DNA from: Sphagnum compactum
Lineage: Eukaryota
Direction of reading: 5' to 3'
DNA: 64,000 bases
Assembly (NCBI GenBank): GCA_965153455.1
Contig: OZ234493.1
Span: forward strand, 33,098,213-33,162,212
Shown here one piece after another: positions 24,401 to 28,294 of the stretch. Position 1 is the stretch's first letter, and every line of letters starts with the position of its first letter. Under the pieces are notes generated by a model. The model was not told the origin of the DNA. It ran no database searches and worked only from the letters and a program-made list of their open reading frames with translations. A program made the position numbers and the translations under genes.

Positions 24401-25158
24401 GGATCCCCTTCCCACCCCTGCTATTGCATCATCTACTTTCCAGTTCCTGAAGGATCATAGTTTCTTATCCTCAACAAAAATGCCTGCAGCCTGTAACAAT
24501 CTACAGGATGCACTGTCAAATTATCTATATCCTTCAGTAGCTCTCAAACTGAATTGAAATTGTTTTCAGTCTTATACAGGGGGATCCACATCCATTCTCA
24601 TCACCTGTTTAAACACACCCACTACCATTCTTGACATATCATAATACCAGCAACTGATTACGCAAATCTCACTGAAAAGAGCTTTGCTTTCCAGCCATCA
24701 TGGTATCATCATGCTTGGTATCTAAATTTTTCTGGATACAACAATTTTGATTTGCTTACAAAACCACATAAATAACTGTTAAAAAATGCTGTTTAAGAAT
24801 TCAAACTCTACTACCATCAGAGAAAACTCAGAATGAAGCCACAAACAAGTTCAAGACCTTGGAACAGTAAGTCTGATTGCACTCAGCTGCAAAGTTCAAC
24901 AAGAACTTGAACAGCAAGCCTCCATGCACTCAGCTGCAAAGTTGAACTTGATTGTATACACCTCTCAAGATCAGCACATCACCTGTTCTCCCAAAAACCC
25001 AACACCACTACTCAAAACCAGCAGCAAATTACATAATAGGACAAGAGATTTATAACCTGGTTTTTACTTCTATCCATACTGCGGTATCTTTTCTTCAAAG
25101 AAAACTGCAGTGCGTCACCTGTGCAAATGAATGTAACCAGTAAATAAACTTTTGATCC

Positions 25159-27444
25159 TCATCGAGAATAAGTAGCAGTGGAGGTGTAGTCCTTCTTGGG
25201 TCCTTTTACATGATACGAGATCTCCATCTTTTCAATGTGATTGCCTCGAAAACAAAACCGATACGACACATTGTACAGATCTTCACTGCACAGGTGCTCA
25301 CCCTCTGCCTTCCAACCCCCAGACATCTCATTTAACTCCCCCTTTTCTGGGCATTTAGGAGAGAGGAAGCGAAGAGAATGGAAAAAGGAGCCTCGGGTGC
25401 CTTCGTTTTCAAAAAAGACGTTGATCTGCTCAGTGTCTTTGTCGTACACATACACATACTTGCGATGCACTCGGAAGTGATGACCGCGCTGCATGGAAAG
25501 CTCCCCTATCTCACTGTAGAGATATTGATGGGACACATCTGTTACAGAGAAGGTTGCTGTCCCCTCAACTGTCCCAGACTGTGATGAATCCATCCGGTTT
25601 TCAATACAGCGATGAAGAATCCATGAACCAGCCAGTGAGCGGAACACTGAATATGGTACCATCTTACCATTCAAAAACTCCTCACATGCCTTCTCAAGAA
25701 TTTCTACAGCTTCGTTTGCTGCCACATCTCCTGTGTGAAAGTGGGCAGGGATGACTATATCATGCTTCTGACACCATTCCTTTGAAGGGAGAACATTAAG
25801 ATCTGCAGCAAATGCATCTGCAAAACCAACATAATCCCAATGAGGGAATTGGGGTTGTGGAGTTTGGATTCTGATCCGCTTCTCGAGGGCGATTCCTTCT
25901 TGCTGGACGGATTCTGGAACTGATGGTAAGACCCCCGAGAAAATGGCAGCTGCCCACCTTGCTTGCAATTCAATGACACCAAAGAAGGGTCCCCGATACA
26001 TACCCACAAAAGCTGATCTGGGAAGTGAGGGATGAAAGGTGGAACGGTGCAGAAGTAATGGCATAAACTGGTCGGCAGGGTCAAAGGATATACTGTCAAG
26101 CAATTCAGAGGAAAGGTAAGGCATCGAGCATAGGAAACCTGTGCAGAAGATGATGCAATCAACATCAGCAATTGTGGTGTGATCTTCAAGGATCAATGTC
26201 CGACCCTGCACCTCCTGCACCTTGCTGAGTCGAACTCTGATATGGTTCGAACGGACAAGCTCCAGGTACATATCAGAGATGGCAACGATGGGCGGATCAG
26301 TGTCATGTTCCAACTTGAGAATCCCTTGATCACCACACAACTTCATGAAGTACTCATTTGCCTTCTGAACCTCCTCCTCACTACGGAAGATATCTTCACT
26401 CTGTGACTTGTGTGTCGAGCGACGGAAAAAGACCAAGTCCAGAGGGAAGAAAGGTGTGGTATCTGAATCAGGATTCAGAGCAATGTAGCGTGGAACAACC
26501 CAGAATGGTCGACTCACCGTGTTGATGACTTCACTGGCAAATGCAGCAATGTCTGCTGCTATTTCTGCTGAACTAGCAGCTGCACCCACAACCACCACTC
26601 GCTTGCCTCTAAATCTCTCTGGCGATCGGTAATTGGAGCTGTGCATGACTTCACCCAGAAAGCCATCTAGTCCCGGAATGCTTGGAATGTGGGGGATGGA
26701 GAAAAACCCGGATGCAAACACCACAAAATCAAACATCTGCTCCTGAGATGATGACAGCAGTGCTGCTGCTGGAGGAGACCCCTGAATTGCCTTTGGCTCC
26801 TCCAAAGATGATGATGATGATGATGATGACCTCCACTGTACAACCCACTTCCCATTGTTGTTGTCGCTGCCGCCACTTCTTGCCACACTTGTGACTTCCG
26901 AGCTGAGAGAGAAGTGCACAGGTTGAAGGAATTTGCGGGCGTAGGCATAAATGTAGTCATTCATCTCATGCTGAGTGGGGTAAGTGGCAGCTTTGGAATC
27001 CCACGCGAAATCAGAAAAGCAGCAGGCATATCGTGACACATTGGTTCTCATTGAGGACCAGAAGGGATTCACTCTAGGATTCCATACTCCACCAAGCTCA
27101 GGTGCTTTGTCAAAGATTGTAGGAGAAAGACCCACCTCAAGCATGTATTTTGCAGTTACAAGACCTGATGGACCTGCCCCAATCACTGCTACAGTCTTTC
27201 CCCTTCTTCTACTATCATCTCCTGTTGCTGCTGCTGCTGTTGTTGTTGGTGTTTTCTCCATTGTTTCGATGTCTTCTCCTCCAAGTTGGTTGCAAGTTGG
27301 GTTTGCAACAAACACAGCCGCTGCTGTTGCTGCTGTTCTTACCTTCTGCTTCAAGATTCCAAGAAGACGGGACTCGCACTTGGAGGAAGAAGAAGGTGAT
27401 GGAACATTCCTGCAGATGAGAAAGCCAAGAAGAAGAGTCATCAC
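25159..27444 (-). CDS. Flavin-containing monooxygenase (class B FMO) fused to a C-terminal DUF6314-like domain
   Basis: 761-codon uninterrupted ORF. FAD motif VAVIGAGPSGL, GGVW, FMO signature FLGEVMHSSNYR, degenerate NADPH motif VVVVGAAASS, VFASG and FCTGF motifs, ELQARW. The last ~165 aa (FRSLAGSWILHRCI...EGTATF...YLYSEIG...RKYVY...FFHSL...HLCSEDLY...VKGPKKDY) match DUF6314 as I recall it. The true start is uncertain: an in-frame upstream segment begins at 27717, and there are internal Mets. Confidence 0.92.
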   Translation of the reverse strand: MMTLLLGFLICRNVPSPSSSSKCESRLLGILKQKVRTAATAAAVFVANPTCNQLGGEDIETMEKTPTTTAAAATGDDSRRRGKTVAVIGAGPSGLVTAKYMLEVGLSPTIFDKAPELGGVWNPRVNPFWSSMRTNVSRYACCFSDFAWDSKAATYPTQHEMNDYIYAYARKFLQPVHFSLSSEVTSVARSGGSDNNNGKWVVQWRSSSSSSSSLEEPKAIQGSPPAAALLSSSQEQMFDFVVFASGFFSIPHIPSIPGLDGFLGEVMHSSNYRSPERFRGKRVVVVGAAASSAEIAADIAAFASEVINTVSRPFWVVPRYIALNPDSDTTPFFPLDLVFFRRSTHKSQSEDIFRSEEEVQKANEYFMKLCGDQGILKLEHDTDPPIVAISDMYLELVRSNHIRVRLSKVQEVQGRTLILEDHTTIADVDCIIFCTGFLCSMPYLSSELLDSISFDPADQFMPLLLHRSTFHPSLPRSAFVGMYRGPFFGVIELQARWAAAIFSGVLPSVPESVQQEGIALEKRIRIQTPQPQFPHWDYVGFADAFAADLNVLPSKEWCQKHDIVIPAHFHTGDVAANEAVEILEKACEEFLNGKMVPYSVFRSLAGSWILHRCIENRMDSSQSGTVEGTATFSVTDVSHQYLYSEIGELSMQRGHHFRVHRKYVYVYDKDTEQINVFFENEGTRGSFFHSLRFLSPKCPEKGELNEMSGGWKAEGEHLCSEDLYNVSYRFCFRGNHIEKMEISYHVKGPKKDYTSTATYSR

Positions 27445-27717
27445 AGGAATCTAAGAAAACACATACACACACAAGAGGGGACATACAGACACACATACCA
27501 CAACATGATGATGATGATGATGGGAGTGAAGAGAAGAAAAAGACCTCAAGCAGAAGAAGAAGAAAATGCTCAAAGATCTCTCTTGTCGTCTCCTTCTCTG
27601 CACAAGCTTGGACGAGCTCCTCAAAGGAAGAGAACGACCACCCACAACACTAGCGCTGCTGCTACTGATTTGCTGCTGTGCAAAGGAGAAGAGTCCAGTA
27701 CCCATCATCGTCATCAT

Positions 27718-28074
27718 CTATATCCTCGTGGATCTTATGTGACAACGACACATGGAGCTGCCCTCCCACATGGATCCCGGATTTTTCCGTTATTTTGTCG
27801 CGACGAGGATGACCGCAACACGAGGCGGCTGCTATCGACATGACGACACTAAGAAACTAGGTACCCAAAAGCAAAGTTCTCGATCAGCTCCCACTCTTCT
27901 CCTTGCTTCTTCTTCTTCTTCTTCCTCTTCTGCTTCTTCCCCACTACGACTGTTCCTCACTGTGGGAGTGAGCTTTAGGGTTTAAGGAACCTAGACTCCT
28001 GCCAGGCGGGTGAAATCGCTAGCACAGACAGACGCAGAGAGAAGACAGACACAGACACACAGACACGGAGAGAG
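27718..28074. promoter_or_regulatory. Short divergent (bidirectional) promoter/5'UTR region between FMO and ARMC7
   Basis: About 360 bp separate the upstream ATG of the FMO (27717, -) and the ARMC7 ATG (28075, +). Relatively GC-rich, with CTT repeats and a telo-box-like TTAGGGTTT near 27975. Confidence 0.6.
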
Positions 28075-28215
28075 ATGTTTAGTAATGCGGAGCGGCAGAA
28101 GGAGAGAACTGGCAAGTATGGCACTTCTCGCGACGAATTCTTGCAGGTGCAATTCAAAGCCGCATGCTCTCCTCCTCTTCTTTTTTTTTGTTCTTGTATT
28201 GTTTGTTTGTTTTGG

Positions 28216-28294
<79 letters not shown>

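What the first reader, a model, noticed from the sequence alone, without database searches (positions are those of the whole stretch)
25159..27444. Intronless FMO-DUF6314 fusion in an intron-rich plant locus: horizontal gene transfer candidate
Seen: a 2.3-kb uninterrupted ORF, while the four neighbouring multi-exon genes have 4-8 introns each. The FMO core is followed by ~165 aa (25159-25653) of predicted beta-rich sequence. Known: plant FMOs (YUCCA, FMO1, GS-OX) are ~400-530 aa and lack such a C-terminal domain. From recall, DUF6314 is stand-alone in bacteria and fused behind FMOs in fungi. Inference: a microbial two-domain oxygenase acquired by a bryophyte, possibly acting in specialised or defence chemistry, with the extra domain binding a ligand or catalysing a second step.
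Basis: partly seen in the sequence, partly recalled or inferred. Interest (0 to 1): 0.8.

Follow-up and report, generated by a model that had tools for sequence, protein, structure and literature searches.

The report
Peat-moss FMO fused to DUF6314 barrel
This is an expressed, spliced Sphagnum gene for a flavin monooxygenase with an extra beta-barrel domain; it belongs to an old family found across algae, bryophytes, fungi and diatoms, and it does not look like a recent microbial acquisition.

Summary
The long ORF and both domains are real: FMO-like E 2.6e-50 and DUF6314 E 1.6e-29. The gene is not intronless. RNA reads confirm a 135-nt GT..AG intron in the 5' coding region, so the protein is 807 aa, and a 136-nt intron in the 3' UTR. 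The window is Sphagnum, which carries two paralogues with the same exon plan. The same fusion occurs in the liverwort Calypogeia, Closterium, Chlamydomonas/Volvox, diatoms, fungi and a rotifer. In ML trees moss+liverwort form a 100/100 clade outside a 100/99 fungal clade. AU tests reject bryophytes+Cantharellales (p 0.00013) and bryophytes+all fungi (p 0.0097). They do not reject Streptophyta (p 0.23) or Viridiplantae (p 0.06). The extra domain models as a 10-stranded calycin barrel with invariant polar residues, predicted to dock on the FMO. Plant J. 2026 (PMC13557801) already describes these Sphagnum FMOs ("S-Ox-like 2", C-terminal beta-barrel, algal relatives). Verdict: a real gene that is already in print; HGT from fungi or bacteria is not supported; function is unknown.

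The parts
27718..27900 (-). 5' UTR (at least this far; upstream limit not determined)
   Evidence: Strand-specific poly-A RNA-seq depth of 3.7-8.5 upstream of the ATG. An in-frame TAG at 27720-27718 sits directly before the ATG.
27545..27717 (-). Exon 1, coding part (173 nt, 57 codons + 2 nt): Ser/Thr/Arg-rich presequence MMTMMGTGLFSFAQQQ...FFFFCL
   Evidence: It matches the N-termini of the annotated Sphagnum models. The first 60 aa have 14 S+T, 9 R+K and 1 D+E. The transit-peptide reading is inference; no predictor was run.
27410..27544 (-). Intron 1 (135 nt, GT..AG, phase 2) with a (CAT)6 run
   Evidence: The joint 27408->27544 (cut +1) skips 135 nt, with ends CT..AC on the + strand. It is seen in 9 reads at 7 starts in X24 and in one contig each of X2, X3 and X1. 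Depth is 0.15 in bin 27425-27521. Sequence.
25159..27409 (-). Exon 2, coding part (2251 nt including the TGA stop at 25161-25159)
   Evidence: continuous RNA depth of about 5-25.
25762..27198 (-). Class B FMO core (P0001 residues 82-560): GAGPSG 88-93, N134, FLGEVMHSSNY 261-271, VVVVGAAASS 282-291, FCTGF 432-436
   Evidence: Pfam; motifs; PDB sequence and fold matches to ancestral FMO2/5/3-6, DiatB and AsFMO.
25636..25761 (-). Helical linker between the FMO core and the barrel (P0001 561-602)
   Evidence: DSSP on the two-domain model shows helices between the last FMO strand and the barrel.
25162..25635 (-). DUF6314 domain (P0001 603-760): 10-stranded antiparallel barrel; invariant W607 R611 G627 Y642 E644 Y662 F677 H716 C718 D721 Y723 V745 G747 P748 K750 D751 Y752
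   Evidence: Pfam; model with pLDDT 93.3; fold search; invariant columns in the 10-row alignment A4 (add 592 to the 168-aa numbering).
25119..25158 (-). 3' UTR, first 40 nt
24983..25118 (-). Intron 2 (136 nt, GT..AG) in the 3' UTR
   Evidence: The loose end at 25115 (5 reads in X24 and one X1 contig) continues exactly at 24949-24978. The splice sites and the 4-nt 'gtga' ambiguity are read.
24949..24982 (-). Start of the next 3' UTR exon (downstream end not determined)
   Evidence: The X1 contig runs on for about 1.5 kb beyond the joint (table 8).

Best explanation
This is a genuine, transcribed and spliced nuclear gene of a Sphagnum species. It is the chromosome-8 copy of a paralogue pair. It encodes an 807-aa protein with an N-terminal Ser/Arg-rich presequence, a class B flavin-containing monooxygenase and a C-terminal DUF6314 domain. 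It belongs to an old, mainly eukaryotic family in which FMO and DUF6314 were fused once and then inherited as one unit. The family is present in chlorophytes, Zygnematophyceae, mosses, a liverwort, diatoms, fungi and rotifers. The Sphagnum copy most likely descends from the gene already present in the moss+liverwort ancestor, and probably from a green-algal progenitor, with losses in most other land plants. It is not a recent capture from a fungus or bacterium. Mechanism, shown only by sequence and fold: FAD is bound at GAGPSG, NADPH at the GAAASS site, and a C4a-hydroperoxyflavin stabilised by N134 would oxygenate a soft nucleophile (S or N) or a carbonyl. Mechanism, inferred: the DUF6314 barrel docks by its N-terminal helix and one rim onto an extended loop of the NADPH-domain region. 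Its conserved polar interior (Y642, E644, Y662, H716-x-C718, D721-x-Y723, K750-D751-Y752) would form a second small-molecule pocket that holds the substrate or product or carries out a follow-up step. The substrate is unknown.
For: Plant nuclear gene: orthologues lie on 23-24 Mb scaffolds of S. fallax, S. troendelagicum and S. jensenii, and the paralogue on 30-36 Mb scaffolds. Of 255 laid poly-A RNA-seq reads, 229 are at least 99% alike; they are strand-specific and spliced at two GT..AG introns. The paralogue has the same plan, with one phase-2 intron of 147-150 nt after residue 12 and then a 694-codon exon, in 4 of 4 metagenome loci. Family range: named fused relatives include Calypogeia fissa (4 rows, scaffolds 1.6-47 Mb), Closterium spp., Chlamydomonas/Volvox, diatoms, Basidiomycota, Ascomycota and Rotaria (120 rows listed of 315 hits). 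Trees: the careful ML tree has 54 rows chosen by me from 251, over 667 columns. It gives the fused clade 99/97, bryophytes 100/100 and fungi 100/99, with bryophytes outside the fungi. A FastTree of all 251 rows shows the same groups. AU tests: bryophytes+Cantharellales subclade p 0.00013; bryophytes+all 19 fungal rows p 0.0097; bryophytes+Closterium p 0.23; Viridiplantae p 0.0615. The DUF6314-only tree recovers the same groups. Passages read in Plant J. 2026 (PMC13557801) place charophyte and chlorophyte sequences at the base of this family. Enzyme: Pfam; motifs intact; H267 and N134 align with the AncFMO2 residues; the fold matches ancestral FMO2 at E 7e-33 and FMO5/DiatB at TMt 0.83. Barrel: pLDDT 93.3, one helix plus 10 strands. 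The nearest solved folds are CpeS, BFA1, OlmO/OssO and nitrobindin, with TMq 0.50-0.58. There are 17 invariant columns, with i/i+2 spacing on strands. Docking: the single-chain model has pTM 0.90. The split-domain test scored 0.84 against a best of 3 controls of 0.55. That mark was reached by 51 of 78 solved complexes and 2 of 108 mismatched pairs (for eukaryotes, 39 of 65 and 2 of 126). The runs agree in at least 95% of contacts and the partner pLDDT is at least 84. The two chains are halves of one natural chain. No solved chain matched the C-terminal domain by sequence. The contacted loop is 3-9 residues longer in the fused rows that cover this region than in all 6 unfused rows.
Against: The base of the fused clade is an unresolved four-way split, and the ML tree does not itself recover Viridiplantae. 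That clade escapes rejection only narrowly (p 0.06). The root rests on 6 distant unfused FMOs. Groups for the AU tests were fixed by taxonomy, but after I had seen the first trees. Among land plants only Sphagnum and Calypogeia carry the gene in my searches (only about a quarter of database rows have names). The Plant J. survey of 78 Viridiplantae genomes found it only in S. fallax, so vertical descent needs many losses. One CDS intron in an intron-rich genome is also what an old transfer or a retrocopy would leave. In the 251-row tree, 10 fused rows fall among the unfused FMOs and 4 unfused rows fall on the fused side, so 'one fusion' is not strict; some of these may be partial gene models. 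The central residue of the NADPH motif is Ala here, where the family consensus is Ser. No member of the family has a measured activity, and bacterial DUF6314 genes show no informative neighbours. I had no access to model coordinates, so 'interior pocket' rests on strand periodicity only.
Confidence: 0.6

Rival explanations
1. Old eukaryote-to-plant transfer. The fused gene entered the common ancestor of mosses and liverworts, or moved between them, from a non-fungal eukaryote such as an alga or protist. It was then kept only in a few bryophyte lineages.
For: Land-plant distribution is patchy: Sphagnum and Calypogeia only, and S. fallax only among 78 Viridiplantae genomes according to passages in PMC13557801. 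The gene is intron-poor. The ML tree does not recover Viridiplantae, and that clade is close to rejection (p 0.0615). The family is also present in rotifers, where foreign genes are common (the last point is my own knowledge).
Against: A streptophyte clade (bryophytes + Closterium) is not rejected (p 0.23). No donor lineage encloses the bryophyte clade. Moss and liverwort copies are about 0.74 changes per site apart, so any transfer would be very old. The paper's passages place charophyte and chlorophyte sequences at the base of the family.
Confidence: 0.2
2. 2026 from a BLAST top hit): a fungal or bacterial two-domain oxygenase was acquired horizontally by a bryophyte.
For: The best named hit outside green plants is Botryobasidium botryosum (40% identity; 42.42% in the paper), level with the best Closterium hit. 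The fusion is most abundant in fungi. The main exon is uninterrupted for 2.25 kb.
Against: Closterium is equally similar at 40%. Fungi form their own 100/99 clade without bryophytes. Bryophytes+Cantharellales is rejected (dlnL 55.9, p 0.00013), as is bryophytes+all fungi (dlnL 12.9, p 0.0097). Bacterial relatives of the FMO are unfused and form the outgroup. Bacterial DUF6314 is stand-alone in 79 of 80 loci. The gene has two spliceosomal introns. Its G+C (0.48) lies within the range of the other open frames in the window (0.40-0.60).
Confidence: 0.05
3. Rival on function: the barrel is not a ligand or catalytic site but a structural, regulatory or oligomerisation module, comparable to the inactive SnoaL-like domain reported on 'Seedless' FMOs.
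For: The paper's passages describe another plant FMO family with an extra domain called catalytically inactive. Fold matches to ligand-binding barrels are only TMq 0.50-0.58 at 7-15% identity. No ligand is known.
Against: Seventeen invariant columns, mostly polar or aromatic, are shared from bacteria to plants and spaced i/i+2 on strands. These residues lie outside the predicted docking surface. Bacteria keep the domain as a free-standing ~150-aa protein, so it has a function of its own.
Confidence: 0.15
4. Contamination or an assembly artefact: a microbial gene mis-assembled into a plant scaffold.
For: None, beyond the long exon.
Against: The gene is present on chromosome-scale scaffolds of several Sphagnum species. 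It is spliced, polyadenylated and strand-specifically expressed, with reads at least 99% identical to the window. A paralogue has the same structure.
Confidence: 0.01

Closest known systems
'S-Ox-like 2' class B FMOs of Sphagnum fallax (Plant J. 2026;127:e71106, PMC13557801; preprint 10.1101/2025.09.16.676513)
   Same: Two S. fallax FMOs 'distinguished by a C-terminal beta-barrel', with Botryobasidium as the top BLAST hit and algal relatives at the base (passages). The window gene is 94% identical to S. fallax BDL97_08G012900.
   Different: The paper does not name the barrel as DUF6314 in the passages I saw. It lists the family as S. fallax-only among land plants, whereas Calypogeia has it. 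It keeps a fungal contribution open, which the AU tests here reject. It says the family lacks the central His of the FMO-ID motif, whereas H267 is present and aligned here. I could not see its supplements, so the gene identifiers are matched by description only.
Animal-type FMOs (reconstructed ancestral FMO2, FMO5, FMO3-6; PDB 6sem, 6sek, 6se3)
   Same: Nearest solved relatives by sequence (E 1.5e-44) and by fold (E 7e-33, TMt 0.76-0.83). They share the FAD, FMO-ID, NADPH and (F/A)xTG(Y/F) motifs and the active-site Asn.
   Different: Identity is 22-24%. From my own knowledge, the animal enzymes end in membrane-anchoring helices; this protein ends in a soluble-looking barrel and has a presequence.
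10-stranded calycin barrels: nitrobindin (At1g79260, 2a13), Rv2717c (2fr2), phycobilin lyase CpeS (4tq2), BFA1 (5yvf), spirocyclases OlmO/OssO (7sfn, 7sfp)
   Same: An N-terminal helix plus a 10-stranded antiparallel barrel; TMq 0.50-0.58, Foldseek E 1.5e-4 to 6e-3. These proteins bind heme, bilins or polyketide intermediates inside the barrel.
   Different: Identity is 10-15%. No Pfam family of these proteins is hit at E up to 1. The DUF6314 invariant residues are its own set. The likeness is one of fold, not of family.
Bacterial stand-alone DUF6314 proteins (e.g. Bradyrhizobium sp. CCBAU 51627, Pseudonocardiaceae MAG)
   Same: Same Pfam family and the same invariant motifs H-x-C-x-x-D-x-Y and G-P-x-K-D-Y.
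   Different: About 150 aa with no FMO attached. Only 1 of 80 loci has an FMO remnant in front of it. Identity to the window domain is 28-29% for the two named bacterial proteins.
'Seedless' plant FMOs with an N-terminal SnoaL-like domain
   Same: Another plant class B FMO family with an added small-molecule-type fold (passages).
   Different: The extra domain is N-terminal, has a different fold, and is reported as inactive.

Membership tests
Class B flavin-containing monooxygenase (Pfam PF00743) | Profile score above the curated cut-off | tested here: met
   171.8 bits against a cut-off of 22, E 2.6e-50.
Class B flavin-containing monooxygenase (Pfam PF00743) | FAD-binding GxGxxG | tested here: met
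   GAGPSG at residues 88-93.
Class B flavin-containing monooxygenase (Pfam PF00743) | FMO-identifying motif FxGxxxHxxxY/F | tested here: met
   FLGEVMHSSNY at 261-271, aligned to FKGQYFHSRQY of AncFMO2. The His is invariant in 45 of 45 rows of A3.
Class B flavin-containing monooxygenase (Pfam PF00743) | NADPH-binding motif GxGxxG/A, or the GxSxSA variant | tested here: inconclusive
   G286-A-A-A-S-S aligns to GIGNSA of AncFMO2. The central residue is Ala here, Ser in the family consensus and in the chr-2 paralogue.
Class B flavin-containing monooxygenase (Pfam PF00743) | Two-Rossmann-domain fold like solved FMOs | tested here: met
   Model pLDDT 91.4. Foldseek gives E 7e-33 to 6sem and TMt 0.83 to 6sek and 8z12.
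Class B flavin-containing monooxygenase (Pfam PF00743) | NADPH- and O2-dependent oxygenation of a substrate | not testable with these tools
   Needs an enzyme assay.
DUF6314 (Pfam PF19834) | Profile score above the cut-off over the whole profile | tested here: met
   103.4 bits against 23.1; profile positions 1-131 of 131; residues 603-760.
DUF6314 (Pfam PF19834) | Family-wide invariant residues shared with bacterial stand-alone members | tested here: met
   W, R, G, Y-x-E, H-x-C-x-x-D-x-Y and G-P-x-K-D-Y are invariant in A4 (10 rows) and also present in A5 (5 bacterial-type rows).
Nitrobindin / CpeS-type calycin barrels | N-terminal helix plus 10-stranded antiparallel barrel | tested here: met
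   DSSP on the model; TMq 0.50-0.58 to 4tq2, 2fr2, 2a13 and 7sfp.
Nitrobindin / CpeS-type calycin barrels | Sequence-level membership (their Pfam families) | tested here: not met
   None of the 16 Pfam families listed at E up to 1 is one of theirs; identity is 10-15%. This is likeness of fold only.
Horizontally acquired gene (fungal or bacterial donor) | Recipient sequences nest inside the donor clade | tested here: not met
   Bryophytes lie outside the fungal clade (100/99) and outside the unfused bacterial-type rows. AU p 0.00013 and 0.0097.
Horizontally acquired gene (fungal or bacterial donor) | Absent from the recipient's relatives | tested here: not met
   Present in Calypogeia, Closterium, Chlamydomonas and Volvox. 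However, absent from every other named land plant among the 120 rows listed.
Horizontally acquired gene (fungal or bacterial donor) | No spliceosomal introns, or foreign base composition | tested here: not met
   Two GT..AG introns are supported by RNA. G+C is 0.48, within the 0.40-0.60 range of other open frames.
S-Ox-like 2 FMO family (Plant J. 2026) | Sphagnum class B FMO with a C-terminal beta-barrel and Botryobasidium as top outside hit | tested here: met
   against the passages. The gene identifiers are in supplements that I could not see.

The most novel reading that the evidence does not exclude
DUF6314 is an uncharacterised small-molecule enzyme or carrier in its own right, free-standing in many soil and marine bacteria. 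In eukaryotes it has been welded to an FMO to form a two-site enzyme, in which the barrel's His/Cys/Asp/Tyr/Glu pocket holds or further converts the FMO's substrate or product. The family would then make or detoxify one conserved metabolite shared by fungi, diatoms, green algae and bryophytes. In Sphagnum the chromosome-8 copy would do this inside an organelle.
Probability: 0.25. Interest if true: 0.55.

Novelty: already known. Interest (0 to 1): 0.3.

Why it matters
The gene matters mainly as a caution. Splicing evidence, wider sampling and topology tests do not support a fungal or bacterial donor. The tests rule out a fungal sister or donor on this sample and fit an old gene with many losses. 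What remains open, and is worth an experiment, is the function of the FMO-DUF6314 architecture. It is conserved across very distant eukaryotes, has a sharply conserved polar pocket, and has no characterised member. A result in Chlamydomonas, a fungus or Sphagnum would annotate the fused family and probably the bacterial DUF6314 proteins too.

Tried and rejected
No genome is held for this window, so I could not search the rest of the assembly. The exact 760-aa ORF product is not in the protein collection, consistent with it not being the true gene model. A single-sequence search with the C-terminal domain at stand-alone lengths gave only 1 hit; the profile search gave 18 among 555 candidates. 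Ten of those 18 (P0283-P0292) nest inside the diatom fused clade on short contigs, so I treat them as probable fragments rather than free-standing genes. The search for related loci with the 45-row alignment A3 failed because no stretch was conserved enough; I used the 5-row bacterial alignment A5 instead. Bacterial neighbourhoods of DUF6314 are an adenylosuccinate-lyase-type gene in 32 loci, BioY in 31, FliG, an ABC transporter and a Tle1-like gene. They form no operon that hints at function, and no FMO partner appears except one remnant in L014. The long bacterial 'DUF6314 ORFs' of 416-585 aa carry no second Pfam domain and are over-extended ORFs. Pfam on 10 neighbour open frames of the window gave nothing, so ARMC7 and the neighbours' intron counts stay unverified. 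Paper searches: 'DUF6314' is in 0 papers. The search on FMO + beta-barrel + C-terminal domain + lipocalin found 100 papers holding at least 3 of the 4 terms; of the 12 listed, none is relevant by title or abstract start. In PMC7570161 the passages for six terms mention nothing about this family. Two RNA loose ends (at 25151 and 25713) match nothing in the window. Earlier notes of this scan: none for this genome. Contamination was considered and rejected.
Full report
**1. The observation**

Stop to stop it is 763 codons, against 178 for the next longest open frame in the 64 kb. Pfam finds FMO-like (E 2.6e-50, 171.8 bits, cut-off 22). It also finds DUF6314 (E 1.6e-29, 103.4 bits, cut-off 23.1) over residues 603-760, covering the whole 131-position profile.

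**2. The gene is not intronless**

The closest database proteins are Sphagnum gene models of 807-809 aa on 23-24 Mb scaffolds: S. fallax BDL97_08G012900, S. troendelagicum and S. jensenii. They carry about 48 extra N-terminal residues.

The window encodes these residues in an upstream exon (27717..27545). A 135-nt GT..AG phase-2 intron (27544..27410) joins that exon to the big exon at 27409. The spliced product is 807 aa and 94.4-94.9% identical to the three models from end to end.

The RNA data agree.
- In a raw poly-A RNA-seq run of the same species, 229 of 255 laid reads are at least 99% alike.
- Coverage is strand-specific at depth about 5-25 and falls to 0.15 in the intron bin.
- Nine reads from 7 start places show the exact 135-nt skip.
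- Contigs from X2, X3 and X1 show the same skip. X2 and X3 give identical numbers and probably are one data set filed twice.

A loose end at 25115 continues exactly at 24949-24978. The sequence there gives a second GT..AG intron (25118..24983, 136 nt), starting 40 nt after the TGA stop.

Sphagnum has a second copy, 71% identical, on the chromosome-2 scaffolds. In 4 of 4 metagenome contigs this copy has the same plan: one phase-2 intron of 147-150 nt after residue 12, containing an in-frame stop, followed by a single 694-codon exon. The gene is therefore intron-poor but not intronless, and this state predates the duplication.

**3. Who else has the fusion**

A search with residues 80-760 gave 315 hits among 8000 scored candidates, with 120 listed. 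Named fused relatives are:
- Calypogeia fissa, a leafy liverwort: 4 rows at 49-59% identity, on 1.6-47 Mb scaffolds.
- Closterium spp. (Zygnematophyceae), 38-40%.
- Botryobasidium and Clavulina (Cantharellales), 38-40%.
- Chlamydomonas and Volvox, 34-37%.
- Diatoms, 30-34%.
- Ascomycota, 29-32%.
- The rotifer Rotaria.

Unfused relatives at 36-37% over the FMO part are bacterial (a gammaproteobacterial MAG, Allokutzneria, Amycolatopsis). No listed row is named for a vascular plant, a hornwort or another moss, although only about a quarter of rows carry names. The full-library scan found 11,969 proteins at E up to 1e-3 and 673 at E up to 1e-30. Large Atlas clusters with this architecture are mostly fungal.

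**4. Trees**

I built an HMM of the C-terminal domain to mark fused proteins; 162 of 281 stored proteins have it.

The first tree was a FastTree of 251 rows. I dropped proteins under 400 aa and all Sphagnum cluster members except P0001, P0130 and P0140. It separates a 126-row, mostly fused side from a 125-row, mostly unfused bacterial-type side. Ten fused rows sit on the unfused side and four unfused rows on the fused side, which argues against a strictly single fusion; some of these may be partial models. Within the fused side, a 65-row clade (97*) is a polytomy of moss+liverwort (100*), Closterium (100*), chlorophytes (100*), a rotifer clade (100*) and fungi (99*).

The second was a careful IQ-TREE run (LG+C20+F+G4 PMSF) on 54 rows chosen from the 251 (48 fused, 6 unfused as outgroup), over 667 columns. 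It gives:
- the fused clade, 99/97;
- bryophytes, 100/100;
- Closterium with one unnamed row, 100/99;
- chlorophytes, 100/100;
- fungi, 100/99;
- fungi joined with a stramenopile+rotifer group, 84/91.

The four lineages at the base are unresolved.

AU tests gave the following.

| Constrained clade | dlnL | p-AU | Result |
|---|---|---|---|
| Bryophytes + Botryobasidium/Clavulina subclade | 55.9 | 0.00013 | rejected |
| Bryophytes + all 19 fungal rows | 12.9 | 0.0097 | rejected |
| Bryophytes + Closterium clade | 4.5 | 0.23 | not rejected |
| All green-lineage rows | 5.8 | 0.0615 | narrowly not rejected |

The groups are taxonomic, but I named them after seeing the first trees.

A tree of the DUF6314 domain alone (88 rows, 161 columns, quick search) recovers the same groups. 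It places the eukaryotic fused domains together (89), apart from most bacterial stand-alone proteins. The two domains therefore share one history.

**5. The domains**

*FMO.* The motifs GAGPSG (88-93), N134, FLGEVMHSSNY (261-271) and FCTGF (432-436) are intact. The NADPH motif reads G-A-A-A-S-S, with Ala where the family consensus has Ser. The nearest solved proteins are reconstructed animal FMO2/5/3-6, DiatB, garlic AsFMO and the LbmA Ox domain.

*DUF6314.* The AlphaFold model (pLDDT 93.3) has a short helix and ten antiparallel strands. The nearest solved folds are CpeS, BFA1, OlmO/OssO, nitrobindin and Rv2717c, at TMq 0.50-0.58 and 10-15% identity. This is a likeness of fold, not of family.

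A domain-only alignment of 10 rows has 17 invariant columns: W15, R19, G35, Y50, E52, Y70, F85, H124, C126, D129, Y131, V153, G155, P156, K158, D159 and Y160. Most of these recur in bacterial stand-alone proteins. Many are spaced i/i+2 on strands, which suggests one conserved face, probably the barrel interior. I had no coordinates to check this.

**6. Do the domains touch?**

The single-chain model of residues 80-760 has pLDDT 91.4 and pTM 0.90. I also folded the two domains as separate chains with controls.
- The score was 0.84, against a best of 3 controls of 0.55.
- That mark was reached by 51 of 78 solved complexes and 2 of 108 mismatched pairs. For eukaryotes the figures are 39 of 65 and 2 of 126.
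- The runs agree in at least 95% of contacts, and the partner pLDDT is at least 84.

This supports docking but does not show it. The chains are halves of one natural protein. No solved chain matched the C-terminal domain by sequence.

The contacts join the barrel's N-terminal helix and one rim to FMO residues about 275-278, 299-301, 316-332, 367-370, 390-400 and 588-591. The loop at 316-332 is 3-9 residues longer in the fused rows that cover this region than in all 6 unfused rows of the alignment.

**7. DUF6314 in bacteria**

The profile search found named stand-alone proteins in a Pseudonocardiaceae MAG and in Bradyrhizobium. The 80 kept loci are from Bradyrhizobium, Variovorax, Frankia, Acidobacteriota, many Rhodobacterales and others. 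All 80 encode the domain, with a median ORF of about 160 aa. Only L014 has an FMO remnant in front of it. The neighbours are housekeeping genes and say nothing about function.

**8. What is in print**

No paper in the library contains 'DUF6314'. However, a preprint (10.1101/2025.09.16.676513; I read passages and part 1 of the Discussion) covers this family. So does its published form, Plant J. 2026;127:e71106 (PMC13557801; passages only). They describe an 'S-Ox-like 2' family of two S. fallax FMOs 'distinguished by a C-terminal beta-barrel'. The family was found only in S. fallax among land plants in 78 Viridiplantae genomes. [quoted passage not shown] The published version adds charophyte and chlorophyte sequences at the base of the family.

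My results add several points:
- the barrel is DUF6314, a calycin fold;
- the family also occurs in Calypogeia, diatoms, many fungi and rotifers;
- bacteria have the barrel alone;
- topology tests reject a fungal sister or donor;
- the gene is spliced and expressed;
- the domains are predicted to dock.

One statement in the paper, that S-Ox-like 2 lacks the central His of the FMO-ID motif, does not fit what I see. H267 aligns with the AncFMO2 His, and that column is invariant in 45 of 45 rows. I could not see the supplements.

**9. Verdict**

The HGT reading is not supported for a fungal or bacterial donor. An old eukaryote-to-plant transfer cannot be excluded (about 0.2). The most likely history is an ancient fused gene retained in a few bryophytes and green algae. 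The function is unknown. The best-supported mechanism is a class B FMO reaction coupled to a second pocket in a docked DUF6314 barrel. Because the Sphagnum proteins and their barrel are already published, novelty is low and interest is modest.

Noticed in passing
window 25151-25713 (-): RNA reads of the same-species run carry loose ends at 25151 (9 reads, median 99 nt) and 25713 (5 reads) that match nothing in the 64-kb window. The stretch between them is almost exactly the DUF6314 part plus linker, so an expressed partial copy elsewhere in the genome is possible. Seventeen of the 255 laid reads were only 90-95% alike.
   Followed up: partly
window 27231-27900 (+ strand RNA): Low antisense coverage (first mate on the minus strand, depth 1.4-3.4) lies over exon 1, the intron and the 5' UTR of the FMO gene. 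It may be an upstream start of the divergent neighbour or a bidirectional promoter.
   Followed up: no
window 27592: A 3-nt insertion (CTT on the + strand) appears in the contigs of X1 and X2/X3. It corresponds to one more Arg in the RRRR run of the presequence, as in the S. troendelagicum and S. jensenii models. It is an in-frame length polymorphism between Sphagnum lineages.
   Followed up: partly
window ~28150-28290 (+) and 27505-27527: Simple repeats flank the gene. A CT-type dinucleotide run is read as (SL)n in an open frame upstream of the gene, and a (CAT)6 run lies inside intron 1.
   Followed up: no
P0148 (S. fallax chr-2 model) against P0140: The S. fallax model of the chromosome-2 paralogue diverges from the S. 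magellanicum model inside the DUF6314 domain (after FRVHR) and ends differently. This could be a mis-annotated intron, an alternative isoform or a decaying copy.
   Followed up: no
L014:5612-6453 (uncultured alphaproteobacterium MAG): This is the only one of 80 bacterial DUF6314 loci with an FMO piece directly in front of it. That piece matches residues 337-482 of the fused protein P0228. It may be a remnant of a bacterial FMO-DUF6314 fusion.
   Followed up: partly
PMC13557801, section on motifs: The paper states that S-Ox-like 2 FMOs lack the central histidine of FxGxxxHxxxY. In the window protein the motif FLGEVMHSSNY is intact, and the His column is invariant in my 45-row alignment.
   Followed up: partly
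L029 (Variovorax sp. Sphag1AA): One of the bacterial stand-alone DUF6314 genes comes from a Variovorax whose strain name suggests a Sphagnum origin. In the domain tree it sits with other Variovorax, far from the moss domain, so it is not a donor.
   Followed up: partly
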